Made by a program: the position numbers and the translations under genes. This document shows, in pieces, positions 4,210 to 38,930 of a stretch of DNA of 64,000 nucleotides; positions within the stretch are counted from its first letter, which is position 1; each line of letters begins with the position of its first letter. The DNA is taken from the NCBI GenBank assembly GCA_041674805.1, contig JBAYVA010000001.1, positions 326,612 through 390,611 on the forward strand, given 5' to 3'. A model generated the notes under the pieces. The model worked only from the letters and a program-made list of their open reading frames with translations. It was not told the origin of the DNA and made no database searches. The stretch is from Candidatus Magasanikiibacteriota bacterium. Its GTDB lineage: Bacteria > Patescibacteriota > Patescibacteriia > Magasanikbacterales > UBA922.

Positions 4210-4310
4210 ATTTCATGAAAACACTAGAACATTAAAACATTAAAACAAACTTAAACACTATTTGCAAAATTGTTTAGTAAAAATGCACCAATCCATCAAA
4301 ATTTAAAAAA

Positions 4311-4345
4311 CACCCCGTCTTTCACGAAAAGCGGGGTGTTTTTAT
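4311..4345. terminator. bidirectional Rho-independent terminator (recQ / ftsX convergent)
   Basis: caccccg-tctttcacgaaaag-cggggtg stem followed by TTTTT. It is flanked on both sides by 'ttttaatg'-type short repeats. Confidence 0.7.
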
Positions 4346-4372: not shown

Positions 4373-5284
4373 TTACGTCCTAAGATATCTATTCATTGCA
4401 AAACCACTAGAAATCATAGTGAGTAACAAAACTATCACAAATTCTCCTCCCAAAACAAAAAGTAAATTTTCTGATAAATATGATGACAACAAATTTTGTT
4501 TTTCAAAGATAACACCAATATATGGATCCAAAATTTTCAAAAAGAAATTTACCATCACATAAGTCAAAGATACACTAATAACACTAAATATAAAAGATTC
4601 TATCAAATAAGGGCCTCTAATAAACCAACTTGTAGCCCCTACAAGGCGTTTTATGCCTATTTCAGCACGTTGGGTATATATTGCGACTCTTATAGTATTA
4701 AAGATGATTATAAACGAAATTATCGCAAATAAAATTGTTAGAAAATACGTAAATTTTTGTACATTGGTAGTGATAGAATGAATTCTATTTATAGCCGTCT
4801 GAGTGTCTCCAAAAGTCTTGGCTTCAATAATATTTTCATATTCTGGCACACTCAAAGCTTCTATTATTTTTTCATAATCTTTTGGCTCACGAGTTTTGAT
4901 AATCAAAGTTGGACCCAAAGGATTTTCTGTCAATTCATTCAAAGAATCCAAAACATCTGGATTGTCAGCATAAACTGTTTTGAAATTTTCAAAAACTTCT
5001 TCTCTTGTCATAAAAGTTTCTTTTTCTACTTCTGGAAAAGAACCAACATAATCTCTAATTTCAGTAATTTCTTCTTCGGTTGCTTCTGGATCAAAATAAA
5101 TACTCACGTCTATTTGTTTTTTTACAGCAATGATAGATTCATCGGTCAAAATTTTTACCACCACCAAAGTATTAATAGATAAAAGCATCAAAACCAAAAT
5201 AAGTACTGTCATAATAGACAAACTCATATTGCGTACAATTTCTTGAAAAGAAAATTTTATAATACGAAAAAATCCTGCAAACAT
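4373..5284 (-). CDS. ftsX: cell division ABC transporter permease FtsX
   Basis: FtsX-like topology: a TM helix, a large extracytoplasmic domain and three C-terminal TM helices. The track ORF extends to 5353 and would overlap ftsE by 65 nt, so the internal Met at 5282-5284 (MFAGFF…) immediately after the ftsE stop is the more likely start. Confidence 0.7.
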   Translation of the reverse strand: MFAGFFRIIKFSFQEIVRNMSLSIMTVLILVLMLLSINTLVVVKILTDESIIAVKKQIDVSIYFDPEATEEEITEIRDYVGSFPEVEKETFMTREEVFENFKTVYADNPDVLDSLNELTENPLGPTLIIKTREPKDYEKIIEALSVPEYENIIEAKTFGDTQTAINRIHSITTNVQKFTYFLTILFAIISFIIIFNTIRVAIYTQRAEIGIKRLVGATSWFIRGPYLIESFIFSVISVSLTYVMVNFFLKILDPYIGVIFEKQNLLSSYLSENLLFVLGGEFVIVLLLTMISSGFAMNRYLRT

Positions 5285-5288
5285 AAAA

Positions 5289-5969
5289 TTATAATCTATA
5301 TTTACCGTTGTCTTCGTCAGAAATGATTCTACCATCATGAATAGTGACGACACGACGCTTAAGTTGATTTACGACTTCCCTATTGTGAGTAACTAACAAA
5401 ATAGTAGTACCAAATTCATTTATTTTTTTCAAAATATCAATAATTTCTTGAGTATTTATAGAATCAAGATTTCCTGTTGGTTCATCAGCTAATAATATTT
5501 TTGGTCTATGTACAAGAGAACGTGCCATAGCCACACGCTGTTGTTCACCACCAGATAATTGATGAGGATATCTGTCATGTTTATGAAATAAACCTACAAT
5601 ATCTAATACTCTTGGTACAACCTGTTTGATACGGGCGACTTTTTCACCAGCAACTTCTAAAGCAAAAGCAACATTTTCAGCTACAGTCTTCTTTGGTAAA
5701 AGTTTGAAATCTTGAAAAATAACACCTATTTGACGACGCAAAAGTGGAATATCCGCATTAGATATTTTGGTGATATCCCATCCACCAACTTCGATAAAAC
5801 CAGAAGTTGGTCTTTCTTCTGCAATTAATAATTTGACCATGGTAGTTTTTCCTGTACCACTTTGTCCAACAATAGAAACAAACTCTCCAGCTTCAACATG
5901 AAGATCTACACCATTTAGTCCAATACTATCAGCAGAATATTTTTTTGTTACACTTTTTAAAGTAATCAT
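5289..5969 (-). CDS. ftsE: cell division ATP-binding protein FtsE
   Basis: ABC ATPase motifs: Walker [10 protein letters not shown], signature [15 protein letters not shown], Walker [13 protein letters not shown]. It lies immediately upstream of ftsX. Confidence 0.85.
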
Positions 5970-6029
5970 ATGTAAAATATTATAACATAAAAAAAAATTT
6001 TACGCTATAAATTTTTTTGATTAAAATTG

Positions 6030-6102
6030 AGCCACCCACGAGGATCGAACTCGTGACCTATTGTTTACGATACAATTGCTCTACCAGCTGAGCTAGAGTG
6101 GC
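6030..6102 (-). tRNA. tRNA-Thr (anticodon CGT)
   Basis: Reverse complement folds by hand as GCCACTC acceptor, D-arm AGCTCAGCTGGTAGAGC, anticodon stem ATTGT/ACAAT with loop ATCGTAA, T-arm CGAGTTCGATCCTCG, discriminator T. Confidence 0.8.
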
Positions 6103-6183
6103 GTAAAAAAATACAAATTACAATTTATAAAATACTTTTATAATAATTGAAATTTTTTTATTTTTAATTGTAATTTTTTATAG

Positions 6184-6268
6184 TGCGGATAAGAAGATTC
6201 GAACTTCTATTTTTGATTACAAAAAAATTTTTTCTATAATCAACGTAATGCCATTATACTATACCCGC
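6184..6268 (-). tRNA. aberrant tRNA-like gene with a 14-nt insertion in the anticodon-loop region (identity unresolved; possible pseudo-tRNA)
   Basis: Reverse complement shows canonical acceptor GCGGGTA/TATCCGC, T8, D-loop AATGGCA with G18G19, G26 and T-arm AGAAG-TTCGAAT-CTTCT. Between the anticodon stem halves TTGAT…ATCAA lie 21 nt (tatagaaaaaatttttttgta) instead of 7. The arm can also fold as a 7-bp stem ttgatta/taatcaa with a 17-nt A6T7 loop. Confidence 0.45.
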
Positions 6269-6301
6269 ATATACTCTAAACTTTTAGAGTATATTTTTAT
6301 T

Positions 6302-7441
6302 CTATTTTTGAGCTTCTGTATCTTCTACCACCTCTTCTGAAACTTCTAGATTTTCCAAATTATCTACATTATCTACTTGTGGATCAGCAAATAATTCTGC
6401 AAAAGGATTATGAATGTTTAAAAGAACTTCAATTTTAGCAGACATCAATTTTTCATTCATAAAAGTACGGAAATTGTTCATATTAGCATCTTCAATTCCA
6501 CTAAATGGGAAAAGAATATGTCTAGCTTTAACTTGTTCTACATCTTCACCTGTTGTTTCATCTTTTTCTACTTTTTTATCAGTAACTTGTAAAATATGAT
6601 AACCAAAAGTAGTTTTTACCAAATCTTCGTTCAACTCACCTTTTTTCAAAGAAAAAGCCACTTCTTCAAATTCAGGTACCATCATACCACGACTAAACCA
6701 ACCTAAATCACCACCTTGTGTAGCAGTACCATCAGTACCATATTCAGCTGCCATTTTTGCAAAATCTTCTCCTTCTTTGATAGCTTTCAAAATTTCCAAA
6801 GCTTGCATACGAACTGTTTCTTCATCATTATTTTCAATAGGATTTTCTTCTACATATTTAGCAGCTAACTTCTTTTCTAATTCTGTTGGATAAACTATTT
6901 TTGAAACAAATTCATCCAAAGTCCAACCATATCTAGCCATTATTTCTGTTTCAGCTTCTTCTTTACTAGCAAAACTTGGCAAAATTTGTTCATCTACAAT
7001 CTTTTGTAAATCTTCATCACTTACAGAAACTTTCATTTCTTTGGCAACTTCTTCTACTAATGTATTTATCAATAAACGACTCAAAACAAAATCTGATTTT
7101 TCTTCTTCTTTTGGAGCTACTTCACCAGAAGTATCTGTAGCATAAAATTTTTCCATTGCTTGAATATTATCAATATAATCACTATATTTTATTTTTTGAT
7201 TATTGATACTAGCTACAGGCATAGCAAAAAAATCAGCTGTTTTCAAAACTACTTCCCCTCTTGATAAATTTTTGACTTGACTAAAAGTTACGGCATAAAA
7301 AATACCGACACCAATAATAAGAGCGGCAACAAAACCACCACCTATAATAATTAAAGGATTTTTTTTATTTGGTGTTTCTACAGATTGGACAGGCTGTGTT
7401 GACAACTCCTCTTGTGGAGTCATTTTTTGTTCTTCTGACAT
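6302..7441 (-). CDS. membrane-anchored PpiC/parvulin-type peptidyl-prolyl cis-trans isomerase (PrsA/SurA-like)
   Basis: N-terminal TM helix. C-terminal parvulin signature GGDLGWFSRGMMVPEFEEVAFSLKKGE…TTFGYHILQV. Confidence 0.75.
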   Translation of the reverse strand: MSEEQKMTPQEELSTQPVQSVETPNKKNPLIIIGGGFVAALIIGVGIFYAVTFSQVKNLSRGEVVLKTADFFAMPVASINNQKIKYSDYIDNIQAMEKFYATDTSGEVAPKEEEKSDFVLSRLLINTLVEEVAKEMKVSVSDEDLQKIVDEQILPSFASKEEAETEIMARYGWTLDEFVSKIVYPTELEKKLAAKYVEENPIENNDEETVRMQALEILKAIKEGEDFAKMAAEYGTDGTATQGGDLGWFSRGMMVPEFEEVAFSLKKGELNEDLVKTTFGYHILQVTDKKVEKDETTGEDVEQVKARHILFPFSGIEDANMNNFRTFMNEKLMSAKIEVLLNIHNPFAELFADPQVDNVDNLENLEVSEEVVEDTEAQK

Positions 7442-16687: not shown

Positions 16688-16800
16688 ATTTCAAAATTAC
16701 AAATTACAAATAATATACAATAAACAAATAACAAAATCACTGAATATTGAAAATTGTAATTTGTTTGGAATTTGTTTATTTAGTATTGTTTATTTTATTC
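16688..16800. repeat. AT-rich palindromic intergenic repeat (copy 1 of a family; near-identical 3' arm to copy at 29845-29970)
   Basis: …caaaattacaaattacaaataatatacaataaacaaataacaaaatc…attgtaatttgtttggaatttgtttatttagtattgtttatttt. The 3' ~45 nt is almost identical to 29925-29970. Confidence 0.55.
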
Positions 16801-18648
16801 TAAGATTGCTTTAATTCTCCTAATACCCGCACTTGAGGATTCTTCTTTCATAATTTTGAAATGTCCCATTACACCAGTATGCTCTACATGAGGACCACCA
16901 CAAATTTCTCGACTAAAAGTAAGACTATTCTCACTAGCTTTGGCTGAAATCTCATTTGGATCACCAACAGTGTAAACTTTTACCATTTCACCATATTTGT
17001 CACCAAAAAGACCAATCGCATTTTTGGTACGAGCTTCTTCTACTTTCATTTCAGAAAAAGTTACTGGATAATCATTTTTTATAGCAGAATTGACCAAATT
17101 TTCTACTTCTTTTATTTGTTCATCTGTCATTTTGTCAGTATAAGAAAAATCAAAACGAAGTCTTTCAGCTGTAATATTACTACCTTTTTGTTCTACGTGA
17201 TTACCCAAAACTTGGCGCAAAGCAGCGTGCAATAAGTGAGTAGCAGTATGATATTTTACACTCATTTCACCATGATCAGCTAGACCACCTTTGAATTTTT
17301 GTTCAGCACCTTGACGAGAAAGTTCTTGATGAGCTGTATAAGCTTCGTCAAAACCAGCTTTATCAATTGTCAGATTATTTTCACTAGCAAGTTCTTCTGT
17401 CATTTCAATTGGAAAACCAAAAGTATCATAAAGTTTGAAAGCTTGTTTACCAGAAATTTCCGTAATAGCACGACCAGTTTTTTCCAAAGCCATTTGAAAA
17501 CCTTTTAGTAATTTTTCAAATTCTTTGATACCTTGTTCAAGTGTCACACGAAATTTTGTTTCTTCTTTTTCCATTTCATTCAAAGCAAATTCTTGATTGC
17601 GATTAACCTCTGGATAAACATCAGCAAAAATACTGATAACAACTTTTGACAATTCTACACAAAAATTATTTTGCAATCCCAAATTACGTCCATGGCGAAC
17701 AGCACGACGAATCAGACGACGCACGATATAGCCTTGATCCACATTACTTGGAGCTACTCCCCTATCATCAGTCATAATCATAGTAGAAGTACGAATATGA
17801 TCAGCTACTACACGCATAGACTTTGTCACACTGTCTGATTCTTTGTATTTCTTGCCACTAAGCTCTTCAATTTTGTTTATAATAGGTTTCAAAGTATCTA
17901 CTTCAAAAGCATCCGAAAATTTGTTGAGGACGGCAGTCGTACGCTCAAGACCCATACCTGTATCTACATTTTGTTTTTCAAGCAATTTAAAAGTTCCATC
18001 TTCTTGCTTGAAATATTGCATAAAAACATCGTTCCAGATTTCTAACCAATTGTCTTCATCATTTCCTGGATTACTACCAGATGGTGGCAATTCTTCTTTT
18101 CCTACCCAAAAAAACATTTCAGTATCAGGACCACAAGGACCAGTGATACCAGCCGGACCCCACCAATTATTTTTCTTTGGTAATTTGGCAATACGTTCTT
18201 CTCTAATTCCCAAAGATTTCCATTTTTCAAATGATTCTGAATCAAAAGGTGCATCACTGTCACCTGCAAAAACTGAGACAGCCAATTTGTTTATATCAAT
18301 TCCTAAATAATCTTTTGAAGTCAAAAATTCAAAACTCCATTCAATAGCTTCTAGTTTGAAATAGTCCCCTAGTGACCAATTACCAAGCATCTCAAAAAAT
18401 GTCAAATGACTTCTGTCGCCAACTTCGTCAATGTCGCCAGTACGTACACATTTTTGGACATCAGTCAGTCTCACTCCAGCTGGATGTTTTTCACCAAGCA
18501 AATATGGGACAAGTGGATGCATTCCAGCAGTAGTAAAAAGTACTGTTGGATCATTTTCAGGCAATAGTGATGCTGAAGAAATCACAGCATGATTCTTACT
18601 AGCAAAAAATTCTAAATATTTTTTTCTAAGTTCTTGTGCGTTTAACAT
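16795..18648 (-). CDS. alaS: alanine--tRNA ligase (short form: catalytic + editing domains, no C-Ala domain)
   Basis: The N-terminal class II core (…FTTAGMHPLVPYLLGEKHP…FEMLGNWSLGDYFK…) and the editing-domain HxxxH/CxxxH motifs (HTATHLLHAALRQVLG…CGGPHVEHTG) are present. At 617 aa it is far shorter than the ~870-aa canonical enzyme. Confidence 0.85.
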   Translation of the reverse strand: MLNAQELRKKYLEFFASKNHAVISSASLLPENDPTVLFTTAGMHPLVPYLLGEKHPAGVRLTDVQKCVRTGDIDEVGDRSHLTFFEMLGNWSLGDYFKLEAIEWSFEFLTSKDYLGIDINKLAVSVFAGDSDAPFDSESFEKWKSLGIREERIAKLPKKNNWWGPAGITGPCGPDTEMFFWVGKEELPPSGSNPGNDEDNWLEIWNDVFMQYFKQEDGTFKLLEKQNVDTGMGLERTTAVLNKFSDAFEVDTLKPIINKIEELSGKKYKESDSVTKSMRVVADHIRTSTMIMTDDRGVAPSNVDQGYIVRRLIRRAVRHGRNLGLQNNFCVELSKVVISIFADVYPEVNRNQEFALNEMEKEETKFRVTLEQGIKEFEKLLKGFQMALEKTGRAITEISGKQAFKLYDTFGFPIEMTEELASENNLTIDKAGFDEAYTAHQELSRQGAEQKFKGGLADHGEMSVKYHTATHLLHAALRQVLGNHVEQKGSNITAERLRFDFSYTDKMTDEQIKEVENLVNSAIKNDYPVTFSEMKVEEARTKNAIGLFGDKYGEMVKVYTVGDPNEISAKASENSLTFSREICGGPHVEHTGVMGHFKIMKEESSSAGIRRIKAILE

Positions 18649-30831: not shown

Positions 30832-33144
30832 TTATTTAGCAATTTTCGCGTAAAGATTTTTTTGGAAAGTGAAAAACATTTTACGAATTTGATCCACATT
30901 GCCCAAATGTTTTTCAGCATCAGCCAAAGCATGATATTTGAGATTAAGTAAAACTGGCAATTGATCTTCACCAAGTTCTTCCACACCTTTTTCAGTATAT
31001 TTATCCAAAATAAAATCTATAAAGTCTTTTTGCTTATCATCAAGTTTTTCCAAAATTTTGTCTTTTGTTTTAGATACTCTTTCCTCACGAGAAACTTTTG
31101 GATTGAGAAAAGAAATATAATTGAGGACATCAAACAAATCACTATTTTCAGCGTCAACGATTTTTTGCAAAGTTTCCAGCTCTACTGGACCAAAGCCAAG
31201 TTCAGCAATACTATCAAGAAAAGCTTTTCTAGTCGTAGGATTTGACCAAATTTTTCGCAGTTCTTCTTCACTTTTGAAAAAGTCTGGCATTTTTTCAAAC
31301 ATATTGTTCATAAATTCTTCGACAGAAATTGGCTTGCCATCAGCACTCCAAAAAGAAGTAGAAATCATATGTTGAATTTCTCTTTCTTTACCATCACGAA
31401 GCTTTATTTTCAATTTTGGTTTTGGTTCTTGTCGTGGTTCTGGTTCAGTAATTATTTTAGCAATTTCTTTATCTTTTGGTTCTTTTATTTTTTTGTCTAT
31501 AGTCACTTCAATTGGTTCACCATCCCATTCTGGATCAGAAAAATGTTTGTAAGCATCGACAAAATCATAAATAGTAAAATATTCTTTGCCATCAAAAAGT
31601 CTGGTACCGCGTCCGACAATTTGTTTGAATTCAATCATCGAATTGACTGGACGCATCAGGACAATATTGCGGACATTGCGCGCGTCGACGCCGGTAGAAA
31701 GTTTTTGTGATGTAGTAAGAATTGTTGGAATAGTCTTTTCATTGTCTTGAAACTCACGCAAAAATTGTTCACCATGAGCACCGTCATTGGCAGTGACACG
31801 CACACAATAATTTGGGTCTTTACTATCTTTCATTTGGTTTATCAAATCACGAACAGCCAAAGCATGATCTTGATTGGCACAAAAAATAATTGTTTTTTCT
31901 TGTTTGTTTATTTCATCCAAAACAATTCTCACTCTTTTGGCTTCACGTTCTTTGATGTGTATTATTCTATTGAAATCTGGTTCTTCATAAATACGACCTT
32001 CTTCTATATCACCTTCAATAATCTGATCGTCAGATGTATAAACATAAGTATCTAAAGTAGTTTGTACACGTTTTACTTTGAAAGGAGTAAGAAAACCATC
32101 GTTGACACCTTCTTTGAGAGAATACGTATAAACTGGTTTACCAAAATAATCATAAGTATCAGCATTGTCTTTTCTTTTTGGTGTAGCGGTAAGACCAAGT
32201 TGCACAGCAGGTGAAAAATAATTCAAAATTTCACGCCAAGTACTTTCGTCATTTGCTCCGCCACGATGACACTCATCAATAATAATAAAATCAAAAAAGT
32301 CTTTAGGATATTCGCCAAAATATGGTGCGCCATTTGGACCACTCATGAAAGTCTGAAAAATAGTAAAAAATATACTACCACTTTTTGGCACGCCGCCTTT
32401 TTTACGAATATCTAGTGGGTTGATACGTACGAGAGCATTTTCTTCAAAAGCTGAAAAAGAGTTGAAAGCTTGATCTGCCAAAATATTTCTATCAGCCAAA
32501 AACAAAATGCGAGGACGACGTTTACCATTTCTTTCTAGATTCCAACGACTTTGAAACAATTTCCAAGCTATTTGAAAAGAAATAAAAGTCTTACCAGTAC
32601 CTGTTGCCAAAGTAAGAAGTATTCTGTTTTTTTCTTCAGCCACAGCAGACAAAGCATTGTTGACTGCAATTTCTTGGTAATATCTAGGAGTTTTGCCACT
32701 ACCAGCATCTTCAAACGGTACAGCATCAAATTTTTCTTTCCAAGTATTTTCTGCACCAAAAGTCTTGTGCCAAAGTTCTTCAGGTGTCGGAAAATGCAAA
32801 ACAGTTTTTTCTTCACCAGTTTCTAGCGACATTTCATAAATTTCACGACCATTGCTAGCGTAAGTATAATTGATTTGTAATTTGTGAGCATAAGCTTTGG
32901 CTTGGGCAACACCTTCACCAACGGCAATCTCCAAAGACTTCGCTTCTACGACTGCCAATTTACGATTTTTGTATACCAAAATATAGTCGGCTATTTCCGC
33001 TTTATTATTAAACAAACCAACACTACCAACACGATCATTAGTAATGCGGAATTCACGCAAGATTTTTGAATTTTCTAATACTCCCCAGCCAGCCTCCTTG
33101 AGCTTTGGGTCGATGTACTCAGCCCGTGTTTCGGCTTCATTCAT
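30832..33144 (-). CDS. hsdR: type I restriction enzyme R subunit HsdR
   Basis: HsdR N-terminal EAETRAEYIDPKLKEAGW; helicase motifs I LATGTGKT and II IIIDECHRG; ATP-dependent translocase domain. The track start at 33210 is probably too early; MNEAETR at 33144 is more likely. Confidence 0.8.
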   Translation of the reverse strand: MNEAETRAEYIDPKLKEAGWGVLENSKILREFRITNDRVGSVGLFNNKAEIADYILVYKNRKLAVVEAKSLEIAVGEGVAQAKAYAHKLQINYTYASNGREIYEMSLETGEEKTVLHFPTPEELWHKTFGAENTWKEKFDAVPFEDAGSGKTPRYYQEIAVNNALSAVAEEKNRILLTLATGTGKTFISFQIAWKLFQSRWNLERNGKRRPRILFLADRNILADQAFNSFSAFEENALVRINPLDIRKKGGVPKSGSIFFTIFQTFMSGPNGAPYFGEYPKDFFDFIIIDECHRGGANDESTWREILNYFSPAVQLGLTATPKRKDNADTYDYFGKPVYTYSLKEGVNDGFLTPFKVKRVQTTLDTYVYTSDDQIIEGDIEEGRIYEEPDFNRIIHIKEREAKRVRIVLDEINKQEKTIIFCANQDHALAVRDLINQMKDSKDPNYCVRVTANDGAHGEQFLREFQDNEKTIPTILTTSQKLSTGVDARNVRNIVLMRPVNSMIEFKQIVGRGTRLFDGKEYFTIYDFVDAYKHFSDPEWDGEPIEVTIDKKIKEPKDKEIAKIITEPEPRQEPKPKLKIKLRDGKEREIQHMISTSFWSADGKPISVEEFMNNMFEKMPDFFKSEEELRKIWSNPTTRKAFLDSIAELGFGPVELETLQKIVDAENSDLFDVLNYISFLNPKVSREERVSKTKDKILEKLDDKQKDFIDFILDKYTEKGVEELGEDQLPVLLNLKYHALADAEKHLGNVDQIRKMFFTFQKNLYAKIAK

Positions 33145-33152
33145 AAATAAAA

Positions 33153-33338
33153 TTATTTTCCTCCGTATCTTTTTTCTGCTTCTCCTTCTTTTAATTCTTT
33201 GCCAGACCATCTGCCAAAACGTGCCCCACAGTCTTTACAATCAATTTCACTGACACCATCATAACGTTCAGGACTGTCATAAGAGTACTCTACATAAATA
33301 ATATTTTTACTACCACATTTTTTACATTTTTTGTCCAT
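33153..33338 (-). CDS. small zinc-ribbon protein
   Basis: 61 aa with CKKCGS…CKDCGA (CxxC-x29-CxxC), wedged between the Fic gene and hsdR and overlapping the hsdR start. Confidence 0.4.
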   Translation of the reverse strand: MDKKCKKCGSKNIIYVEYSYDSPERYDGVSEIDCKDCGARFGRWSGKELKEGEAEKRYGGK

Positions 33339-33342
33339 ATGG

Positions 33343-34536
33343 TTAATTTTTATTATTTAAAGATGCTGGAATAAAACTATTTTTTTCAAGTATATGTATA
33401 GCCCCTCGCAATAAATAATTATTGGCAAATCCTAAAGTATATACTCTTCCTTTGGGATTGATAGAAATAAGCATTTTTTTGTCTTTAAGCCTTTTTAGAA
33501 TTCTAGAACGCTGTACAGAAGATTCTTCTCCAATTATTTTTTCTAAATCTGAAGATTTGATAATCATATCTTTACTTTTAACCAAGTATGCAAGTATTTC
33601 ATGTTCACGTTTTGTAATATGTTCATTATCCAAAGCAAAAGACAACATAGGTAACAAAATATTATTTGTCATATATGAAAGGTCTAACAATTTATCAATT
33701 TTTTCTATTTCTTCACGCAAACCTTCCAAAACATAAGAACACCACTGCAAAGTTTTTTCCTCTTCTCCTGTATCTGCCAAAGATAACATTTGATAATATT
33801 TATCACGGTCCATGCAAAAGACAGCTGTTGGATTCAAAATCCTACCATTTTTTACTTGAAAACGTTGTTTTATCAAAAGTGCATAAGTAAACATTCTCAC
33901 AAGACGACCATTGCCATTGTCAAAAGGATGAATCCAAGCCATACGATGATGTGACAAAGCAACAACCAAAAGATGATATTGAGAATCCAGAGGTTGGTTT
34001 ATGAATTTTATAAATTCCTCAAAATAATCTGGAACTTTCATAAAATCAGGAGGAACATGTTCTGCTTTACCAATAGAAACATTTACTGGTCTTAATTGAC
34101 CTGGGTATCTTGATCCCTCACCATTTGGTGAAGGTGTGAGACCTTCTACCAATATCTTGTGAATTTCAGAAATCAAAGCTCTATCTATTTTTGTTTTATT
34201 ATTTACATTATTTTCTATAAATTCAATAGCTCTTTCAATATTAGAGATCTCTCTGTCTTTTTCGGATTTACTATTTTTTGCTTTATTTTCAATAATCTTT
34301 TCTACATATTCAGCCAAAGTAGTTCTATTTCCTTCAATACGGGCAGAACCTATACTTTCTAAAATCTGAAAAATATTCTTTAATTGAAAGAATATATAAG
34401 GAGGAACTGGACCGCCAAGTTGTTTTACACGCAATTTTTCTAATTCAATAATAGTATTGGCCAGTTTGCTATTCCATTTTGGCTCATAAAGCTTAAAAGG
34501 AATATCTTTGAATTTTGGCTTATTTTCAGAAGTCAT
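33343..34536 (-). CDS. Fic/DOC family protein (AMPylase-like) with C-terminal winged-helix
   Basis: Canonical Fic motif HPFDNGNGRLVRMF with Fic_N-like N-terminus. It is embedded in the hsd operon. Confidence 0.8.
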   Translation of the reverse strand: MTSENKPKFKDIPFKLYEPKWNSKLANTIIELEKLRVKQLGGPVPPYIFFQLKNIFQILESIGSARIEGNRTTLAEYVEKIIENKAKNSKSEKDREISNIERAIEFIENNVNNKTKIDRALISEIHKILVEGLTPSPNGEGSRYPGQLRPVNVSIGKAEHVPPDFMKVPDYFEEFIKFINQPLDSQYHLLVVALSHHRMAWIHPFDNGNGRLVRMFTYALLIKQRFQVKNGRILNPTAVFCMDRDKYYQMLSLADTGEEEKTLQWCSYVLEGLREEIEKIDKLLDLSYMTNNILLPMLSFALDNEHITKREHEILAYLVKSKDMIIKSSDLEKIIGEESSVQRSRILKRLKDKKMLISINPKGRVYTLGFANNYLLRGAIHILEKNSFIPASLNNKN

Positions 34537-34645
34537 ATAGACTATTTAACATATATAGCTATATATTAGCTTATATTAGCTATTTTGTCAAGTGGATAGA
34601 TTATTGTCATTTAACATTTATCTTTTTAGACATTTAACATCTTTT

Positions 34646-35860
34646 TTACAACTCCCCTGCAAAGGCCTTTTTCAAAACAGATTTCTTGAGTTCTTCGAGA
34701 CTAGCCAATTTCTTCATATATATTTCCTCTAGTTTCTTAGTTTCAGCTGAAAGTGCGTCGAGCTTGGCGACGATGGATTTTTGTTCGGTGAGAGATTTTG
34801 GATAATTTAAAATAATTTGTTTTAAAGCACCACCATTAAATTGAGGTTGAGCTGAACCTGCAGAAAGTTGATTGACTTGATCCCAATAGATTTTAGATTT
34901 TGAAAAATGCCAATATAATTTACTAAAAATTTCTTTTTTAAATTTCATTCTAATAAGATATGATGCAAAAACTGAGGGTTCATCATTTTCAAAAAGCAAA
35001 ACATTTCCAGCAGAAGCTCCTGTTCTCGCCATTAACAAATCATTATTATTTAAAAGATATTTTTCAGCCTCTTTAAAAGAATCAACATACATCTTATTTT
35101 CTTTTGTAAGTAAACCATTTTCATCAGTATCTGTAATTCTTACAAATCGGTACTTTCCTTTATTTTTAGCTTTGGTAGTATAACCATATTCTACATCACA
35201 AATATCTCCTAAACTTTTTTCTTCCCACTTTTGACCTTCGACTTTTGACTTTTGACTTGTGAAAACACTATTCAAATAACTCTCAAAGACCTCCTTACTA
35301 TTTTTCAAATTCTTTTCAGTATTTGCTTTGGCTGTTTCAATGCCAGCGAAGACTTCGTCGAGTATTTTTACGATGTGGTGTTGGGTGGGGAGAGGAGGGA
35401 GAGGGATTTCAAAATTTTTTATTTGTTCTGTACTCAAATTTGGTTGGGCTGAGCCCATTGATATTTTTAAATTTTCTTCAATTTTAGTTGATAAAAAATA
35501 ATATAAATAATCCTTCACTAAATCTTTTTTTGGTTTAAATTTTCCTACACGCTGATTCAAATAAAATATTTCATCAGTATCACAAACAGCTAACTTTCCA
35601 GTTGTTGCGCCAGACATTGCAATTACCAGATCACCTTTTAAAACTTGATATTTATCAAAATTTTCTTTATAACTTTTTTTGTCAAAAAATACAAGTCTAT
35701 TATAAGAAATTCCATCATTTTGAATATTCGAAATTCTTAAAACAGGAAAACCATTCTCCTTAAATAATTTACTCTTAAAAGCAAATCCATTTTGAAAATC
35801 ACAAACTTCACTAAGTTTTTTTGTTTGCCAATTATTTTTTGTCATAGTAAAACTTTCCAT
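34646..35860 (-). CDS. hsdS: type I restriction-modification specificity subunit HsdS
   Basis: Two target-recognition domains separated and followed by conserved coiled-coil spacers (…PLPPLPTQHHIVKILDEVF… and …QKSIVAKLDALSAETKKLEEIY…). Confidence 0.8.
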   Translation of the reverse strand: MESFTMTKNNWQTKKLSEVCDFQNGFAFKSKLFKENGFPVLRISNIQNDGISYNRLVFFDKKSYKENFDKYQVLKGDLVIAMSGATTGKLAVCDTDEIFYLNQRVGKFKPKKDLVKDYLYYFLSTKIEENLKISMGSAQPNLSTEQIKNFEIPLPPLPTQHHIVKILDEVFAGIETAKANTEKNLKNSKEVFESYLNSVFTSQKSKVEGQKWEEKSLGDICDVEYGYTTKAKNKGKYRFVRITDTDENGLLTKENKMYVDSFKEAEKYLLNNNDLLMARTGASAGNVLLFENDEPSVFASYLIRMKFKKEIFSKLYWHFSKSKIYWDQVNQLSAGSAQPQFNGGALKQIILNYPKSLTEQKSIVAKLDALSAETKKLEEIYMKKLASLEELKKSVLKKAFAGEL

Positions 35861-36452
35861 TTTCTATTCTATTAGGTAAATTATTGAATATCTCTAATAC
35901 AAAATCATGGTAGTCTTCAATAATTTTTATTAAGTCAGATATTAAAAGATATCTATTATTTATACATATACTTTTATAATCTTCGCTTACATCCAAAAAT
36001 AAATCTTTTTTAAAAGTATTATAAAAAATATCTTCATTTATATGCTCTACTCTATTACGTATTTTAGAGACATTATATTTTTTTAGTCTATTTATAGTTT
36101 TTTTATCTATATATTTTAATAGATTTATTTTTCTTTTATCATCATTCTTACCATTTATTATAATATCAAAAATTTTTATAAATCTATTTATAGCATAAAG
36201 GCAATCTTCTAAATTATTTATAATATTTATTCTATAAATTAATTTGTCACCTGTTTTTATTTCTTCTTCTAAAGATTCTTTTACTTCTTCATATTTAAAC
36301 CAAGATTTATCAACTAACCTAAAAAGTAATCTTATATACAATTTACTTTTTTCATCTAAAACTTTTTCAGATCCGACTAAAATAATAGGTAAAAACCTAC
36401 TAACTAAAGGAAAATCAATTTTAATGTTGGGAATTTTATTATTATTTTTCAT
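35832..36452 (-). CDS. hypothetical protein (partner of the RelA/SpoT-domain gene; very AT-rich)
   Basis: 206 aa, Lys/Asn/Ile-rich with no known motif. It overlaps the upstream RelA/SpoT gene by 11 nt and hsdS by 29 nt, so the genes are translationally coupled. Confidence 0.4.
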   Translation of the reverse strand: MKNNNKIPNIKIDFPLVSRFLPIILVGSEKVLDEKSKLYIRLLFRLVDKSWFKYEEVKESLEEEIKTGDKLIYRINIINNLEDCLYAINRFIKIFDIIINGKNDDKRKINLLKYIDKKTINRLKKYNVSKIRNRVEHINEDIFYNTFKKDLFLDVSEDYKSICINNRYLLISDLIKIIEDYHDFVLEIFNNLPNRIENGKFYYDKK

Positions 36453-37482
36453 AATCTATTATTTTTTCTTCAATCACATCTAATAACTTTACAAATTCCT
36501 GTGTATCAAGAAAATAATTTGGATAAAGTTTTTCTAAATTATTTATATCATCTACAGAAACTAACACAATCTCCGTGTTTTTATCATTTAGATACTTTTT
36601 TTCTAACTTCGTATATTGATTATTTGCTTGATCTAATTTTGACTCAGAATATCGTTCAATATTTAATAATTTATTTTTAAAATTTAAAGAAATAAGGTAA
36701 TATTTACCTCTTTCTTTCTTTGTTTCTTTAGTAGAAATTTGAGTAGCAACCGAAAAACCTTCTATTTTATCTCTTAATTTTAATTCTTTAATTCTTTTAG
36801 ATATTTTTTGAAAAAATATTATATCAATATCATCATATTCCAACATGATAAATGCTTTGCTAATTTCTTTAAATAAATCAAGTAATTCTGCATCACCAAA
36901 ACTTTGTTTTAATGGTTGTCTTAAATATGTTCCTATAACTTCAACCGCTGTTGCCCAGGCATGATGTATTTTTGTTCTTAATTGAATTTCAATTCTGCAT
37001 TGACAATCTATAGAAACTTTTTTGTCATATTTATAAATTAAATGGATACTTCTATATCCACTTTCTTTTGGTTCTTTTATATAATCTTTTTCTTTTAAAA
37101 AAGTTGATTTGAAAGCTGCTTCTTGTTCTCCTTTTTTTAATAAATCTCTTAATTTATAGACCTCTTCTAAATTATCAACAACTGCACGTAAACCACCAAC
37201 ATCTTGCATTTGAGATAAAGACATGTTTTCTTGAATTTTTAACTTACTGATTATCGATGGTGCTCGCTTTAATCTCTGAGAAATTAAAACGTTACTATTT
37301 ATTGATTTAGATTTTCTTATTAAAGACATTCTAAAAACAATCAATGGATGGATATGAATTGATCTAAAGTTTTCTAAAATTTCAATAGCTAAATCTTGTG
37401 TTATTTTTTCATCAGATATACCAGCAAGAACATCCCCAGCTTTATCTATTTCCTTTTTTGAATATTTTAAAAATGACTTCAT
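36442..37482 (-). CDS. RelA/SpoT-domain nucleotide pyrophosphokinase (small alarmone synthetase-like; toxSAS/CapRel-like) with about 140-aa C-terminal extension
   Basis: Synthetase-fold motifs RLKRAPSIISKLK, DVGGLRAVV, YRSIHLIYKY and EIQLRTKIHHAWA. An unrecognisable C-terminal domain of about 140 aa follows. It overlaps hsdM by 4 nt. Confidence 0.7.
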   Translation of the reverse strand: MKSFLKYSKKEIDKAGDVLAGISDEKITQDLAIEILENFRSIHIHPLIVFRMSLIRKSKSINSNVLISQRLKRAPSIISKLKIQENMSLSQMQDVGGLRAVVDNLEEVYKLRDLLKKGEQEAAFKSTFLKEKDYIKEPKESGYRSIHLIYKYDKKVSIDCQCRIEIQLRTKIHHAWATAVEVIGTYLRQPLKQSFGDAELLDLFKEISKAFIMLEYDDIDIIFFQKISKRIKELKLRDKIEGFSVATQISTKETKKERGKYYLISLNFKNKLLNIERYSESKLDQANNQYTKLEKKYLNDKNTEIVLVSVDDINNLEKLYPNYFLDTQEFVKLLDVIEEKIIDYEK

Positions 37483-38930
37483 AATATATTCTTAATCTTC
37501 TCAAAAATTTCTCCACTATCCTCATCCAAACCCTTTATTTCCTCCAAAATCTCCTTCGGCTCCCTCAAAACATCCTCTTCTTTCTTGTTTGGGTTCTTCA
37601 CTGATAAATCAAAAGTAGCTTGATCAATATTTTTCACATCCACCATCCAAGAATTAGCACTACTTTCCTTCTTTTCTTGAAGCTTCACAAACTCAGCTAA
37701 GTCCACTTCACTCAATGGATTGCCCTTGCCAAGATTTCTATCTAGATTGAGCTGATAATACCAGATTTTTCTTGTTGGAGCGCCTTTTTCAAAAAATAAG
37801 ACAATAGTCTTCACACCCGCACCCTGAAAAGCACCACCTGGTAGATCTAGGATAGTATGCAGATTGCAAGTCGTAAGTAATTCTTTGCGTAGTGAGACAC
37901 TGGCATTGTCAGTGTTGCTCAAAAAAGTATTTTTGATGACAATCCCAGCTCGTCCACCAGCTCGGAGCATCTTGATAAAATGTTGTAAAAAGAGAAATGC
38001 TGTCTCGCCAGTTTTTATCGGGAAATTTTGTTGAATTTCTCTACCAATACCTGCTCCAAAAGGTGGATTTGCTAAGATAACATCTTTTCTGTCTTTTTCT
38101 TGTATGTCATTGATATTTTCTGCTAGTGTGTTCATGTGACGGATATTTGGTGCCTCAATACCATGTAAAATCATATTCATAATACCAATAATGTAGGCAA
38201 GAGATTTGATTTCTTTTCCGTAAAAAGTTTTGTTTTGCAAAGTTGTCATTTGACTTGAAGAAAGCTTGGCTTGATTTTCTGTCAAATATTTATATGCCTC
38301 CACCAAAAATCCAGCACTTCCACAAGCACCATCATAAATTGTTTCTCCAATTTTTGGATCTACTATTTTAACAATTGTTTTGATGAGTGGACGTGGTGTG
38401 TAATATTCACCACCATTTCGCCCAGCATTGCCCATATTTTTTATTTTTGACTCATAAAGATGTGAAAGTTCATGTTTTTCTTCATAAAGTCGAAAATGCA
38501 TTTTGTCTACCACGTTCAAAATTTCTCGTAATTTATAACCACTAGAAATTTTGTTTTTGAGTTCACTAAAAATTTCACCGATTTTGTATTCAATAGTATT
38601 TGGATCTTCAGCTTTAAATTTTTTTAAATAAGGAAAAAGTTTATTATTTACAAAGTCTCTCAAATCGTCACCATCAAGTGCTTTATTGTAATCCAATTTT
38701 TCATCACCATTTTTAGGACAAGCCCAAATATTCCAGAGATATTCTGGAGACAAAATATATTCATAATTTTTACCTGACAAAATGGCCGACTTTCTTTTGT
38801 CTTCTTCTAAATCATCAAGGTATTTCAAAAATAAAATCCAAGAAGTTTGTTCTACATAATCTAACTCCGTTCCGCAACCAGAGTCAGTATGAAGTATACT
38901 GTCAATGCTTTTGAATGATTGTTCAAACAT
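37479..38930 (-). CDS. hsdM: type I restriction-modification N6-adenine DNA methyltransferase HsdM
   Basis: HsdM N-terminal domain, SAM-binding motif DGACGSAGFL and catalytic motif LANPPFG. Confidence 0.85.
   Translation of the reverse strand: MFEQSFKSIDSILHTDSGCGTELDYVEQTSWILFLKYLDDLEEDKRKSAILSGKNYEYILSPEYLWNIWACPKNGDEKLDYNKALDGDDLRDFVNNKLFPYLKKFKAEDPNTIEYKIGEIFSELKNKISSGYKLREILNVVDKMHFRLYEEKHELSHLYESKIKNMGNAGRNGGEYYTPRPLIKTIVKIVDPKIGETIYDGACGSAGFLVEAYKYLTENQAKLSSSQMTTLQNKTFYGKEIKSLAYIIGIMNMILHGIEAPNIRHMNTLAENINDIQEKDRKDVILANPPFGAGIGREIQQNFPIKTGETAFLFLQHFIKMLRAGGRAGIVIKNTFLSNTDNASVSLRKELLTTCNLHTILDLPGGAFQGAGVKTIVLFFEKGAPTRKIWYYQLNLDRNLGKGNPLSEVDLAEFVKLQEKKESSANSWMVDVKNIDQATFDLSVKNPNKKEEDVLREPKEILEEIKGLDEDSGEIFEKIKNIL

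What the first reader, a model, noticed from the sequence alone, without database searches (positions are those of the whole stretch)
6184..6268. tRNA-like gene with intact acceptor, D and T arms but a 21-nt anticodon loop (14-nt AT palindrome inserted)
All the universal tRNA hallmarks are present (T8, G18G19, G26, TTCGAAT T-loop, 7-bp acceptor). The anticodon arm, however, is TTGAT-[tatagaaaaaatttttttgta]-ATCAA, and no 7-nt sub-window of the loop gives the U33/R37 pattern. The insert is far too small for a bacterial group I intron and lacks an archaeal bulge-helix-bulge context. Options are a recently inactivated tRNA (pseudo-tRNA next to tRNA-Thr), a tRNA with a non-canonical extended anticodon arm, or a tRNA-derived regulatory or structural RNA. 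tRNAscan-type tools would probably miss or mis-score it.
Basis: seen in the sequence. Interest (0 to 1): 0.6.

Follow-up and report, generated by a model that had tools for sequence, protein, structure and literature searches.

The report
Conserved anticodon-less tRNA-like RNA gene
In a group of tiny uncultured bacteria (Magasanikbacteria), a glycine tRNA gene has been remodelled into a tRNA-shaped RNA whose anticodon loop is replaced by a long rigid hairpin. Evolution has kept this odd shape intact across several lineages, so it probably does a job other than reading codons.

Summary
On the minus strand at 6184-6268 lies an 85-nt tRNA-like gene. It has a 7-bp acceptor stem, D and T arms and all the universal tertiary nucleotides. 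The "21-nt loop" is actually paired, so the anticodon arm is a 12-14 bp rod with a tiny cap. ARAGORN calls it tRNA-??? and Rfam's tRNA model scores it 51.5 bits.

The host is a Candidatus Magasanikbacteria (CPR) bacterium. The gene order is ppiC, this gene, tRNA-Thr(CGU), ftsE. A sister clade and an outgroup carry a normal tRNA-Gly(CCC) with U73 at exactly this site.

Five lineages (six distinct sequences) carry the long-arm form. All six have A73, an 11-12 bp conserved arm base and an apex that varies in length and sequence (arm 29-39 nt). Seven base pairs show compensatory changes, 94.6% of pair cells are standard pairs, and there are 13 G·U but no A·C cells. Flanking spacers are mostly near-random.

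It is therefore not a decaying pseudogene, a BHB or group I intron, or a repeat element. It is best read as a selected, non-decoding tRNA-derived RNA that has lost three of the five GlyRS determinants. Its function is inferred only. No description was found in the literature searched.

The parts
6184..6268 (-). The whole tRNA-like gene (85 nt), derived from tRNA-Gly(CCC). Discriminator A73 is at 6184. No CCA is encoded.
   Evidence: ARAGORN; Rfam tRNA 51.5 bits; fold; homology to tRNA-Gly(CCC) at the same site in relatives.
6262..6268 (-). Acceptor stem 5' strand GCGGGUA. It pairs with 6185-6191 (UAUCCGC). Pairs 1-3 (GCG/CGC) are invariant in all long forms. Pairs 4-69 and 5-68 covary.
6245..6259 (-). 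D arm: stem GUA(U)/(U)UAC and 7-nt loop AAUGGCA with A14, G18 and G19.
6232..6243 (-). Extended 'anticodon' arm, 5' strand UUGAUUAUAGAA (12 nt).
   Evidence: Arm pairs 4 and 12 show compensatory changes.
6225..6231 (-). Apex of the arm (AAAAUUU). It can pair further to leave a 3-nt cap. It is not conserved in sequence or length among lineages.
6213..6224 (-). Extended arm, 3' strand UUUUGUAAUCAA. UUUGUAA is invariant in all six distinct sequences.
6192..6208 (-). T arm: AGAAG-UUCGAAU-CUUCU. The T loop is canonical. Three of the five stem pairs covary.
6271..6292 (-). 9-bp hairpin (AUACUCUAA-AAGU-UUAGAGUAU) ending 2 nt upstream of the tRNA-like 5' end, just after the ppiC stop. A hairpin of unrelated sequence is seen at this spot in the window, L001, L111, L108, L119, L143 and the Gly-type locus L008.
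   Evidence: Read from the sequences.
6103..6183 (-). Spacer between the tRNA-like gene and tRNA-Thr. Its ends form an inverted repeat (AAAUUACAAUU ... AAUUGUAAUUU).
6030..6102 (-). Canonical tRNA-Thr(CGU), always the next gene downstream.
6302..7441 (-). ppiC/prsA-like peptidyl-prolyl isomerase gene, the upstream syntenic anchor.
   Evidence: Pfam Rotamase families.
5289..5969 (-). ftsE (ABC ATPase), the downstream syntenic anchor, followed by ftsX at 4373-5353.

Best explanation
This is a real, selectively maintained gene for a non-decoding tRNA-like RNA that evolved from the tRNA-Gly(CCC) gene at the ppiC / tRNA-Thr(CGU) / ftsEX locus of Magasanikbacteria.

The RNA keeps everything that makes a tRNA L-shaped and lets end-processing enzymes recognise it. 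It has a 7-bp acceptor stem with an invariant G1-C72/C2-G71/G3-C70 top, U8, A14, G18G19, G26, and a canonical GUUCGAAUC T loop. The 5-bp anticodon stem and 7-nt loop, however, are replaced by an 11-12 bp AU-rich helix of conserved sequence. That helix carries a free-to-vary tip, giving 12-17 bp in all. The discriminator has switched from U73 to A73.

Shown: homology to tRNA-Gly(CCC), the structure, its conservation through compensatory change, the lack of any conserved anticodon-like loop, and the loss of three of the five bacterial GlyRS determinants (U73, C35, C36).

Inferred: it is transcribed with the neighbouring tRNA-Thr, cut by RNase P and a 3' nuclease, and given CCA like a tRNA. The rod-like arm keeps it out of the ribosomal decoding site. 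It works through its acceptor end and elbow. The most likely role is a dedicated substrate or carrier for an enzyme that reads only the acceptor end, such as an anticodon-independent synthetase followed by a non-ribosomal aminoacyl transfer, or a tRNA mimic that binds a tRNA-recognising protein. The conserved lower helix (UUG.UUA.A / UUUGUAA..AA) would be a second, sequence-specific protein contact.
For: 1. ARAGORN and Rfam both see a tRNA body. The MFE fold is a cloverleaf with a 14-bp arm, z=-4.4.

2. The same gene order holds in relatives. A normal 72-73 nt tRNA-Gly(CCC) with U73 occupies this site in L003-L006, L008-L010, L114 and the outgroup L140/L141. Its acceptor stem, D arm and T arm align with the long form.

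3. Long-arm forms are present in five lineages and six distinct sequences: window, L001/L002/L017/L121/L132, L111/L112/L116, L108-110/L128/L139, L119 and L143. They come from independent assemblies.

4. Covariation: 94.6% of 168 pair cells are standard pairs. Seven pairs have changes on both sides, against 0-2 in six slid controls. No shuffle of 500 reached the observed covariation score or the observed percentage paired. RNAalifold on the unedited sequences returns the same cloverleaf with an 11-bp common arm and 6 compensatory pairs.

5. There are 13 G·U cells and no A·C cells, and every mismatch is U·U. Pairing is therefore selected on this RNA strand.

6. Pairwise identity of the tRNA-like gene across lineages is 80-87%. 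The stretch upstream of it is 46-63% identical, and the spacer is 53-59% in most pairs.

7. The apex varies (loops AAAAUUU, GUAUUA, UAAUA, UAUUA, or 5 extra bp in L143; arm 29-39 nt), so no anticodon is conserved. ARAGORN's 'anticodons' differ in every lineage: atag, aca, ata, taaa.

8. The bacterial GlyRS determinants are G1-C72, C2-G71, U73, C35 and C36 (PMC7826273). Only the two stem pairs remain here.

9. GGG makes up only 44 of 1128 Gly codons in the window, so a CCC-reading tRNA was dispensable and free to be co-opted.
Against: There are no expression, processing or aminoacylation data. No partner protein was identified, and the 64-kb window holds no Fem-type transferase, RtcB or synthetase paralog.

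Only six distinct sequences from one family-level clade are known.

The neighbour-gene tree places the window outside a clade that contains both the normal-Gly clade and the other long forms (94% bootstrap). The history therefore involves allele exchange, gene replacement or a tree artefact that I could not resolve.

The strong sequence conservation of the lower arm could also reflect something other than protein binding.
Confidence: 0.55

Rival explanations
1. Cis-acting element only. After losing its decoding role, the former tRNA-Gly is kept merely as a well-folded 'punctuation' module in a ppiC / tRNA / tRNA-Thr (/ ftsEX) transcript. RNase P cleavage at its 5' end would define the hairpin-protected 3' end of the ppiC mRNA, and its compact fold would stop it interfering with tRNA-Thr maturation. 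It would have no trans-acting function.
For: A hairpin of unrelated sequence ends 2-5 nt upstream of the tRNA(-like) 5' end in every locus read, normal-Gly L008 included. No strong promoter was found between ppiC and the gene. The spacer ends pair the trailer of the tRNA-like RNA with the leader of tRNA-Thr in most long-form lineages.
Against: RNase P at tRNA-Thr could do the same job without the upstream module. A pure processing signal does not explain four features: the fixed U73-to-A73 switch, the invariant GCG/CGC top, the conserved sequence of a 9-bp stretch of the arm, and the retention of every tertiary nucleotide.
Confidence: 0.2
2. Plain pseudogene: a tRNA-Gly(CCC) inactivated by an insertion and now drifting.
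For: A normal tRNA-Gly(CCC) is the ancestral state at this site. GGG codons are rare, so loss would be tolerated. The gene evolves faster (80-87% identity) than the adjacent tRNA-Thr (92-100%).
Against: Seven compensatory pairs and 94.6% pairing persist across lineages whose flanking non-coding DNA is mostly near-random. Pairing is strand-specific with G·U only, and all tertiary nucleotides are invariant.
Confidence: 0.07
3. Precursor of a decoding tRNA: 12-22 nt are removed from the arm by an unknown bacterial cut-and-ligate pathway. The only register that keeps the 5-bp basal stem gives the loop Y-U-U-U-G-U-A (anticodon UUG).
For: YUUUGUA immediately 5' of the basal 3' strand is invariant in all six sequences. 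The removed segment would vary in length as introns do.
Against: That loop has U37 instead of a purine. G1-C72 with A73 is not a bacterial Gln-type acceptor end (my knowledge: tRNA-Gln has U1-A72 and G73). The helix is continuous, with no bulge-helix-bulge. 12-22 nt is far too short for a group I intron, and Rfam finds none. No bacterial protein-dependent tRNA splicing is known (PMC4090602 covers archaea and eukaryotes only). The conservation of UUUGUAA is equally explained by pairing with UUAYA.
Confidence: 0.05
4. The selected object is the DNA palindrome, acting as a tyrosine-recombinase/dif-like core site, an operator or a promoter, rather than an RNA helix.
For: The arm reads as 11-12 bp inverted repeats around a short spacer and loosely resembles dif arms (my recollection of dif consensus, not tested). 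On the antisense strand the window reads TTGATT-16-TATAAT. tRNA-Thr next door shows att-like partial duplicates in L010 and L143.
Against: The distance between the half-sites varies (arm 29, 29, 30, 31 and 39 nt), which recombinase cores and promoters do not tolerate. By my own reading of the sequences, the promoter-like hexamer spacing drops to 14 in L108 and L119. The half-sites differ exactly where RNA G·U pairs occur (13 G·U, 0 A·C). Compensatory change also occurs in the acceptor and T stems. Promoter-like matches are not enriched (7 found against 4.3±2.3 expected). GC skew does not switch here.
Confidence: 0.03

Closest known systems
Non-proteogenic tRNA-Gly isoacceptors of Staphylococcus (cell-wall pentaglycine donors; PMC7826273)
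   Same: They are tRNA-Gly-derived paralogues diverted from ribosomal decoding to a non-ribosomal use, and they retain an L-shaped tRNA body.
   Different: The staphylococcal RNAs keep a normal anticodon arm with UCC, all GlyRS determinants (U73, C35, C36) and an altered T loop (UGC/UGU). They evade EF-Tu rather than the decoding site. The RNA here has no anticodon loop, A73 and a canonical UUCGAAU T loop. No Fem-type partner is known.
tRNA-Other, the pseudo-tRNA of Bacillus cereus (PMC3399842)
   Same: It is a tRNA-like gene that does not function in translation yet has a biological (regulatory) role.
   Different: tRNA-Other keeps an anticodon (CCA), is part of a longer regulatory transcript and is restricted to the B. 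cereus group. There is no extended anticodon helix.
tRNA-like domain of tmRNA (PMC3985003, PMC2481249)
   Same: It has an acceptor/T-arm 'upper half' of a tRNA with no anticodon, and a long helix emerges where the anticodon arm would be. It is processed by RNase P.
   Different: tmRNA has G3·U70 for AlaRS, a reduced D arm, an mRNA-like reading frame and pseudoknots, and it needs SmpB. Here the D arm is complete, pair 3-70 is G-C and the helix is closed by a small loop. ARAGORN does not call it a tmRNA.
Intron-containing pre-tRNAs of archaea and eukaryotes (PMC4090602) and group I introns in bacterial tRNA anticodon loops
   Same: There is extra sequence of variable length in the anticodon region of an otherwise normal tRNA gene.
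   Different: There is no bulge-helix-bulge and no catalytic core, and removal does not yield a canonical loop. The host is a bacterium with no known splicing endonuclease.
[quoted passage not shown]
   Same: They depart from the otherwise near-invariant 5-bp anticodon stem.
   Different: Those have 6 bp (rarely a broken stem) and keep a 7-nt anticodon loop that decodes. Here the helix is 12-17 bp with a 3-7 nt non-conserved cap.

Membership tests
Canonical decoding tRNA (Rfam RF00005) | Cloverleaf with 7-bp acceptor stem, D arm and 5-bp T stem with a GUUCRANYC loop | tested here: met
   Rfam 51.5 bits over model positions 1-71; fold; consensus fold.
Canonical decoding tRNA (Rfam RF00005) | Universal tertiary nucleotides (U8, A14, G18, G19, G53, U54, U55, C56, A58, C61) | tested here: met
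   Invariant in all six sequences.
Canonical decoding tRNA (Rfam RF00005) | 5-bp anticodon stem closing a 7-nt loop with U33, an anticodon and R37 | tested here: not met
   The arm is a 12-14 bp helix with a 3-7 nt cap. The only register that keeps the basal stem gives U37. Rfam needs a 20-29 nt insertion.
Canonical decoding tRNA (Rfam RF00005) | The same anticodon in orthologues | tested here: not met
   ARAGORN calls atag, aca, ata and taaa in different lineages. Apical loops are unrelated.
Bacterial tRNA-Gly (GlyRS substrate) | G1-C72 and C2-G71 (and G3-C70) | tested here: met
   Invariant. Determinant list from PMC7826273.
Bacterial tRNA-Gly (GlyRS substrate) | Discriminator U73 | tested here: not met
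   A73 in all six long forms. U73 in all normal tRNA-Gly(CCC) at the same site.
Bacterial tRNA-Gly (GlyRS substrate) | C35 and C36 in the anticodon | tested here: not met
   There is no anticodon loop. The arm contains at most one or two C residues, none in a conserved loop.
tRNA pseudogene under neutral decay | Stem-disrupting substitutions, and divergence similar to flanking non-coding DNA | tested here: not met
   94.6% of cells paired and 7 compensatory pairs. Gene identity is 80-87% against 46-63% for the stretch upstream of it.
Archaeal/eukaryal spliced pre-tRNA | Bulge-helix-bulge (two 3-nt bulges around a 4-bp helix) at the exon-intron junctions | tested here: not met
   The helix is continuous with no bulges in five of the six forms, and has one U·U in L001/L111 and L143.
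Archaeal/eukaryal spliced pre-tRNA | Removal of the insert restores a canonical anticodon loop | tested here: not met
   All registers were enumerated by hand from the sequences. The only U33 option has U37.
Archaeal/eukaryal spliced pre-tRNA | Splicing endonuclease and ligase encoded by the genome | not testable with these tools
   Only a 64-kb window of the ~0.74-Mb contig is available. None was seen in it.
Group I intron in a bacterial tRNA | Catalytic core of about 200 nt or more, recognised by the Rfam intron model | tested here: not met
   The extra sequence is 12-22 nt. A permissive Rfam search of 5950-6350 finds only the two tRNAs.
Staphylococcal-type non-proteogenic tRNA-Gly | Retained Gly anticodon and GlyRS determinants, plus a T loop UGC/UGU instead of UUC | tested here: not met
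   No anticodon, A73, and T loop UUCGAAU. Features from PMC7826273.
Staphylococcal-type non-proteogenic tRNA-Gly | A Fem-family aminoacyl-transferase that uses it | not testable with these tools
None was found among the 30 window proteins scanned.
tmRNA tRNA-like domain | G3·U70 alanine identity, a tag reading frame and pseudoknots | tested here: not met
   G3-C70. 85 nt only. ARAGORN reports no tmRNA.
Dispersed palindromic repeat (REP/MITE) inserted in a tRNA | Other copies of the inserted element in the genome | tested here: not met
   No other copy of the 31-mer at up to 3 mismatches in 64 kb. The half-site occurs at the chance rate.
Tyrosine-recombinase core / dif-like DNA site | Fixed spacing between inverted arms, and symmetry at the DNA level | tested here: not met
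   Arm length is 29-39 nt. The asymmetries are G·U-type only.

The most novel reading that the evidence does not exclude
A previously undescribed class of bacterial RNA: an 'anticodon-less' tRNA whose decoding arm has been turned into a rigid rod so that it can never be read on the ribosome. Its tRNA elbow and a re-specified acceptor end (U73 to A73) would let it be processed, CCA-tailed and probably aminoacylated by an anticodon-independent synthetase. It would then serve as a dedicated amino-acid carrier or protein-binding tRNA mimic for a non-ribosomal process in CPR bacteria. It may also spread between lineages by recombination at the tRNA-Thr locus.
Probability: 0.25. Interest if true: 0.8.

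Novelty: new variant of a known kind. Interest (0 to 1): 0.62.

Why it matters
tRNA-derived RNAs with jobs outside decoding are known, for example cell-wall tRNA-Gly, tRNA-Other and the tmRNA tRNA-like domain. In the reviews and searches available here, however, the anticodon stem is described as almost invariant: 5 bp, at most 6. No natural tRNA body with a conserved 12-17 bp rod in place of the anticodon stem-loop turned up.

If the RNA is expressed and charged, it would show a new way of partitioning a tRNA away from translation, by steric exclusion from the decoding site rather than by EF-Tu evasion. It would also give a handle on unknown tRNA-dependent biochemistry in CPR/Patescibacteria, which cannot yet be grown alone.

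There is a practical point too. Annotation pipelines call these genes tRNA-Undet, tRNA-Cys or tRNA-Tyr at random, which inflates or distorts tRNA inventories of CPR genomes.

Tried and rejected
- **Genome scan.** A scan of 185,579 species-representative genomes with TGGCATTACG-N25-55-GTTCGAATC gave 97 hits. Only L017, identical to L001, was relevant. The rest were ordinary tRNA-Gln/Pro/Trp/Cys genes or chance matches.

- **Metagenome scan.** A scan with ATTACGTTG-N20-50-AGTTCGAATCT gave 25 hits. It added one new lineage (L119) and more copies of two known ones.

- **Viral contig scan**. No relatives were found.

- **Intron registers.** Every way of deleting a contiguous block to leave a 5-bp stem and 7-nt loop was tried by hand. 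Only Y-U-UUG-U-A keeps U33, and it has U37. Two invariant 7-mers look canonical: UUUGUAA (a Thr-UGU loop) and UUGUAAW (a Tyr-GUA loop). Both need a stem register that breaks the D stem/26 junction and is not conserved, so both were rejected.

- **BHB threading.** No bulges were found.

- **Promoter idea.** TTGATT-16-TATAAT lies on the antisense strand. By my reading of the sequences, the spacing falls to 14 in other lineages, and matches are not enriched.

- **dif-like idea.** Variable spacing, G·U asymmetry and no GC-skew switch argue against it.

- **Repeat-element idea**. Rejected.

- **Partner gene in the window**. The window holds AlaRS, MnmA and GatA, but nothing specific to this RNA.

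- **Monophyly test**. A tree of six neighbouring proteins did not give monophyly of the long forms. I could not resolve whether this reflects allele transfer, gene replacement or long-branch attraction.

- **Literature.** Seven full-text searches found no prior description.
Full report
**What is in the window.**
The finding lies on the minus strand. Read 5'→3' from 6268 to 6184, the sequence is GCGGGUA UA GUAU AAUGGCA UUAC G UUGAUUAUAGAAAAAAUUUUUUUGUAAUCAA AAAU AGAAG UUCGAAU CUUCU UAUCCGC A. ARAGORN reports it as tRNA-??? with a four-base 'anticodon'. Rfam's tRNA model matches end to end at 51.5 bits (gathering score 29, E=3.8e-8). It handles the middle by declaring a 20-nt insertion in the anticodon loop.

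Folding gives a cloverleaf in which the 'loop' is paired. The anticodon arm is an uninterrupted 14-bp hairpin with a 3-nt cap, at -22.5 kcal/mol and z=-4.4 against shuffles. The better description is a tRNA body with a rod in place of the anticodon stem-loop. The 31-nt arm is unique in the 64-kb window, and its half-site occurs at the chance rate. It is not a dispersed palindromic element.

**Organism and context.**
The adjacent protein is 100% identical to a peptidyl-prolyl isomerase of a Candidatus Magasanikbacteria MAG (CPR/Patescibacteria) on a 743,922-bp contig. The window is about 31% G+C with uniformly negative GC skew. It encodes ordinary bacterial genes, including GreA, RecQ, FtsEX, ribosomal proteins, RpoA, AlaRS, MnmA, MurG and FtsW.

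On the minus strand the order is ppiC (6302-7441), a 9-bp hairpin (6271-6292), the tRNA-like gene, an 81-nt spacer, tRNA-Thr(CGU) (6030-6102), then ftsE and ftsX.

**Orthologous loci.**
I used PpiC homologues as anchors and fetched their contigs. The gene order is conserved.

At the position of the finding, one clade carries a normal 72-73 nt tRNA-Gly(CCC) with discriminator U73. This clade comprises L003-L006, L008-L010 and L114, with neighbour PpiC 53-60% identical to the window's. So does an outgroup, L140/L141, at about 50% identity.

The long form aligns with that tRNA-Gly over the acceptor stem (GCGGGU(G/A) ... UAUCCGC), the D arm and the T arm. GGG accounts for only 44 of 1128 glycine codons in the window's ORFs. 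A CCC-reading tRNA was therefore expendable.

**The long-arm form is not a one-off.**
The same kind of gene sits at the same site in four further lineages:
- L001/L002/L017/L121/L132, with the close variant L111/L112/L116
- L108-L110/L128/L139
- L119
- L143

These are documented. They come from independent ENA, JGI, NCBI and Logan assemblies, so assembly error is excluded.

All six distinct sequences share five features:
- A73
- G1-C72/C2-G71/G3-C70
- a 7- or 8-nt D loop with G18G19
- G26
- a canonical UUCGAAU T loop

The arm has a conserved base of 11-12 bp. Its 5' strand is UUG-W-UUA-Y-A-K/A-A-R, and its 3' strand is Y-UUUGUAA-W-Y-AA, with UUUGUAA invariant. The arms are:
- window: UUGAUUAUAGAA-AAAAUUU-UUUUGUAAUCAA
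- L001: UUGUUUACAUAA-GUAUUA-UUUUGUAAACAA
- L108: UUGAUUAUAAAG-UAAUA-CUUUGUAAUUAA
- L119: UUGUUUAUAGAG-UAUUA-CUUUGUAAACAA
- L143: 11 bp, a U·U, then five further pairs and a 5-nt loop (39 nt in all)

Each folds as a cloverleaf with a long arm, with z from -3.4 to -5.0. The tip is free to vary in length and sequence, and no loop is conserved. ARAGORN's 'anticodons' differ between lineages (atag, aca, ata, taaa). There is no anticodon.

**Selection, not decay.**
To keep the columns in register, I replaced the variable apex with a GAAA placeholder. On that alignment, 94.6% of 168 pair cells are standard pairs. Seven of the 28 pairs show changes on both sides that keep the pair:
- acceptor 4-69 and 5-68
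- arm pairs 4 and 12
- T-stem 49-65, 50-64 and 51-63

Controls with the 3' partner slid by 1-3 columns give 41-59% pairing and 0-2 such pairs. No shuffle of 500 reached the observed covariation score or the observed percentage paired (a hand table is). RNAalifold on the unedited sequences independently returns the same structure, with an 11-bp common arm and six compensatory pairs.

All non-Watson-Crick pairs are of two kinds. Thirteen cells are G·U and none is A·C. The rest are U·U. Pairing is therefore selected on this strand, at the RNA level.

Across lineages the gene is 80-87% identical. The stretch between ppiC and the gene is 46-63% identical, and the downstream spacer is 53-59% in most pairs. 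The adjacent, certainly functional tRNA-Thr is 92-100% identical. The gene thus evolves faster than a decoding tRNA but far more slowly than neutral DNA. A plain pseudogene is rejected.

**What it cannot be.**
- *Group I intron:* the extra 12-22 nt is far too short, and a permissive Rfam search finds only the two tRNAs.
- *Archaeal or eukaryal-type intron:* the helix has no bulge-helix-bulge.
- *Any removable block:* no deletion of a contiguous block restores a canonical loop. The only register that keeps the basal 5-bp stem and U33 gives Y-U-UUG-U-A, with a pyrimidine at position 37. The acceptor end (G1-C72, A73) is unlike bacterial tRNA-Gln as I know it.
- *Thr(UGU) or Tyr(GUA) loop:* the invariant UUUGUAA can be read as either, but only in registers that destroy the stem and the D-stem junction. 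I reject these as coincidences of an AU-rich helix.
- *DNA-level palindrome (recombinase core, operator or promoter):* this does not fit the variable spacing (arm 29-39 nt), the G·U-only asymmetry, or the covariation in the other stems. The antisense TTGATT-16-TATAAT match in the window is not conserved in spacing, and promoter-like matches are not enriched.

**How it most likely works.**
*Shown.* The RNA retains the whole tRNA 'upper body' and elbow. It has lost the anticodon loop, and it has lost three of the five bacterial GlyRS determinants: U73, C35 and C36 (list from PMC7826273).

*Inferred from established tRNA biology.* RNase P, 3' maturation and CCA addition read the acceptor/T-arm domain, so the RNA should be matured like a tRNA. 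No CCA is encoded, as for the neighbouring tRNA-Thr. A helix 7-12 bp longer than normal, with no anticodon, cannot be accommodated or selected in the decoding centre. The molecule is therefore excluded from translation.

The fixed U73-to-A73 change and the invariant top three acceptor pairs, beside freely covarying pairs 4 and 5, suggest continued recognition of the acceptor end by some enzyme. Synthetases for Ala, Leu and Ser do not read the anticodon (PMC11028032 abstract). G3·U70 and a long variable arm are absent here. Some bacterial LeuRS enzymes charge short-variable-loop tRNAs (PMC6614811). Leucylation is thus a candidate, but it is untested.

All three EF-Tu-contacting T-stem pairs vary between lineages. 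That is compatible with release from EF-Tu tuning.

The conserved sequence of the lower arm suggests a second, sequence-specific contact.

My best reading is a dedicated non-ribosomal tRNA-like substrate, carrier or mimic. The main rival is that it survives only as a cis-acting folding and processing module of the ppiC / tRNA-Thr transcript.

**Comparison with known systems.**
Functionally, the nearest analogues are the staphylococcal non-proteogenic tRNA-Gly species (PMC7826273) and B. cereus tRNA-Other (PMC3399842). Architecturally, the nearest is the tmRNA tRNA-like domain, which lacks an anticodon (PMC2481249, PMC3985003). It is a member of none of these; see the membership table.

[quoted passage not shown] Seven full-text searches found no description of a rod-armed tRNA-like RNA, nor of unusual tRNAs in Magasanikbacteria. 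I rate it a new variant of a known kind, namely non-decoding tRNA-derived RNAs.

**Open problem.**
A neighbour-joining tree of six concatenated neighbouring proteins (1491 columns) puts the window outside a 94%-supported group. That group contains both the normal-Gly clade and the other long forms. Monophyly of the long forms has 0% support, and the outgroup has the normal gene.

The long forms share too many derived characters to have arisen twice. Three explanations remain:
- the allele moved by recombination;
- the normal gene was restored in one clade;
- the tree is distorted.

Recombination is plausible for three reasons. The window and L119 share a 91%-identical spacer although their PpiC proteins are only 54% identical. 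The tRNA-Thr gene shows att-like partial duplicates in L010 and L143. The window also encodes competence and pilus genes. I could not settle this with the tools.

**Limits.**
There are only six distinct sequences, and only flanks of up to a few kb per relative. There is no whole-genome tRNA inventory and no expression data.

Noticed in passing
window 6103-6183 (minus strand); L119 212-292; L001 4243-4373; L111 2743-2865; L143 ~1475-1590: The spacer between the tRNA-like gene and tRNA-Thr begins with AAAAAUUACAAU and ends with AAUUGUAAUUU(U) in the window, L119, L001, L111 and L143, but not in L108. The two ends can pair and so join the trailer of one RNA to the leader of the next. Only L001's fold is significant (z=-3.7). 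The paired core AUUACAA/UUGUAAU resembles the core of the tRNA-like arm (AUUAYA/UGUAAU). This may be a processing stem or a shared protein site.
   Followed up: partly
window 5960-6183 vs L119 1-292: The window and L119 are 91% identical in the 81-nt spacer (the last ~47 nt are identical). They are also highly similar through tRNA-Thr and the ftsE upstream region. Yet their PpiC proteins are only 54% identical and their tRNA-like genes 80%. This suggests recombination or horizontal exchange at this locus, or strong constraint.
   Followed up: partly
window 6271-6292 (minus strand); same position in L001, L111, L108, L119, L143 and the Gly-type locus L008: A hairpin of unrelated sequence ends 2-5 nt upstream of the tRNA(-like) 5' end, right after the ppiC stop codon, in every locus read. 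It looks like a structure-conserved 3' end or protector of the ppiC mRNA next to an RNase P site.
   Followed up: no
concatenated neighbours of window, L001, L116, L128, L119, L003, L005, L008, L010, L140, L142: The neighbour-joining tree makes the long-arm carriers paraphyletic. The window falls outside a 94%-supported group that includes the normal tRNA-Gly(CCC) clade. This conflicts with a single origin unless the allele was exchanged or replaced.
   Followed up: partly
L010 ~4285-4320 and ~4402-4450; L143 ~1575-1590 and 1664-1712: Partial copies of tRNA-Thr flank the intact tRNA-Thr(CGU). One is a 5' fragment with ...CCCGAUUGA before the gene. The other is a 3'-half copy, ...GGUCACGAGUUCAAAUCUCGUGGAUGGCUCU, after it. 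These look like remnants of integration and excision at this tRNA.
   Followed up: no
window ~5975-6025 (minus strand); L008 ~4470-4525; L119 ~1-60: The ftsE upstream region carries a conserved hairpin plus an extended -10-like element (UUAUAGC.[U/C]AAAA...UUUU.UGUUAUAAU). It is shared by long-form and Gly-form lineages and is probably the ftsEX promoter or operator.
   Followed up: no
window 30832-38930 (minus strand): A type I restriction-modification island (HsdR 30832-33210, HsdS 34646-35860, HsdM 37479-38930) has three extra genes embedded: a Fic-domain gene (33343-34536), a 206-aa ORF with no Pfam match (35832-36452), and a RelA/SpoT-like small alarmone-synthetase-type gene (36442-37482). 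A second Fic/RhuM gene lies at 40086-41075. The RelA/SpoT-like gene could be a toxSAS-type toxin that targets tRNA 3' ends (my knowledge; untested).
   Followed up: no
window 60867-62912 (minus strand): A SecD-like protein (681 aa) has a PpiC-type rotamase domain inserted (residues ~243-356) between the SecD P1 N-terminal and head subdomains. This is an unusual fusion of a translocon subunit with a foldase.
   Followed up: no
window 16795-18648 (minus strand): The alanyl-tRNA synthetase is only 617 aa. It has the catalytic and editing/SAD domains but apparently lacks the C-terminal C-Ala domain of typical bacterial AlaRS.
   Followed up: no
window 6213-6240 (plus strand): Antisense to the tRNA-like arm, the DNA reads TTGATT-16 nt-TATAAT, a 10/12 match to a sigma-70 promoter. 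By my reading of the sequences, the spacing is 14 in L108 and L119, so it is probably a by-product of the AU-rich palindrome.
   Followed up: partly
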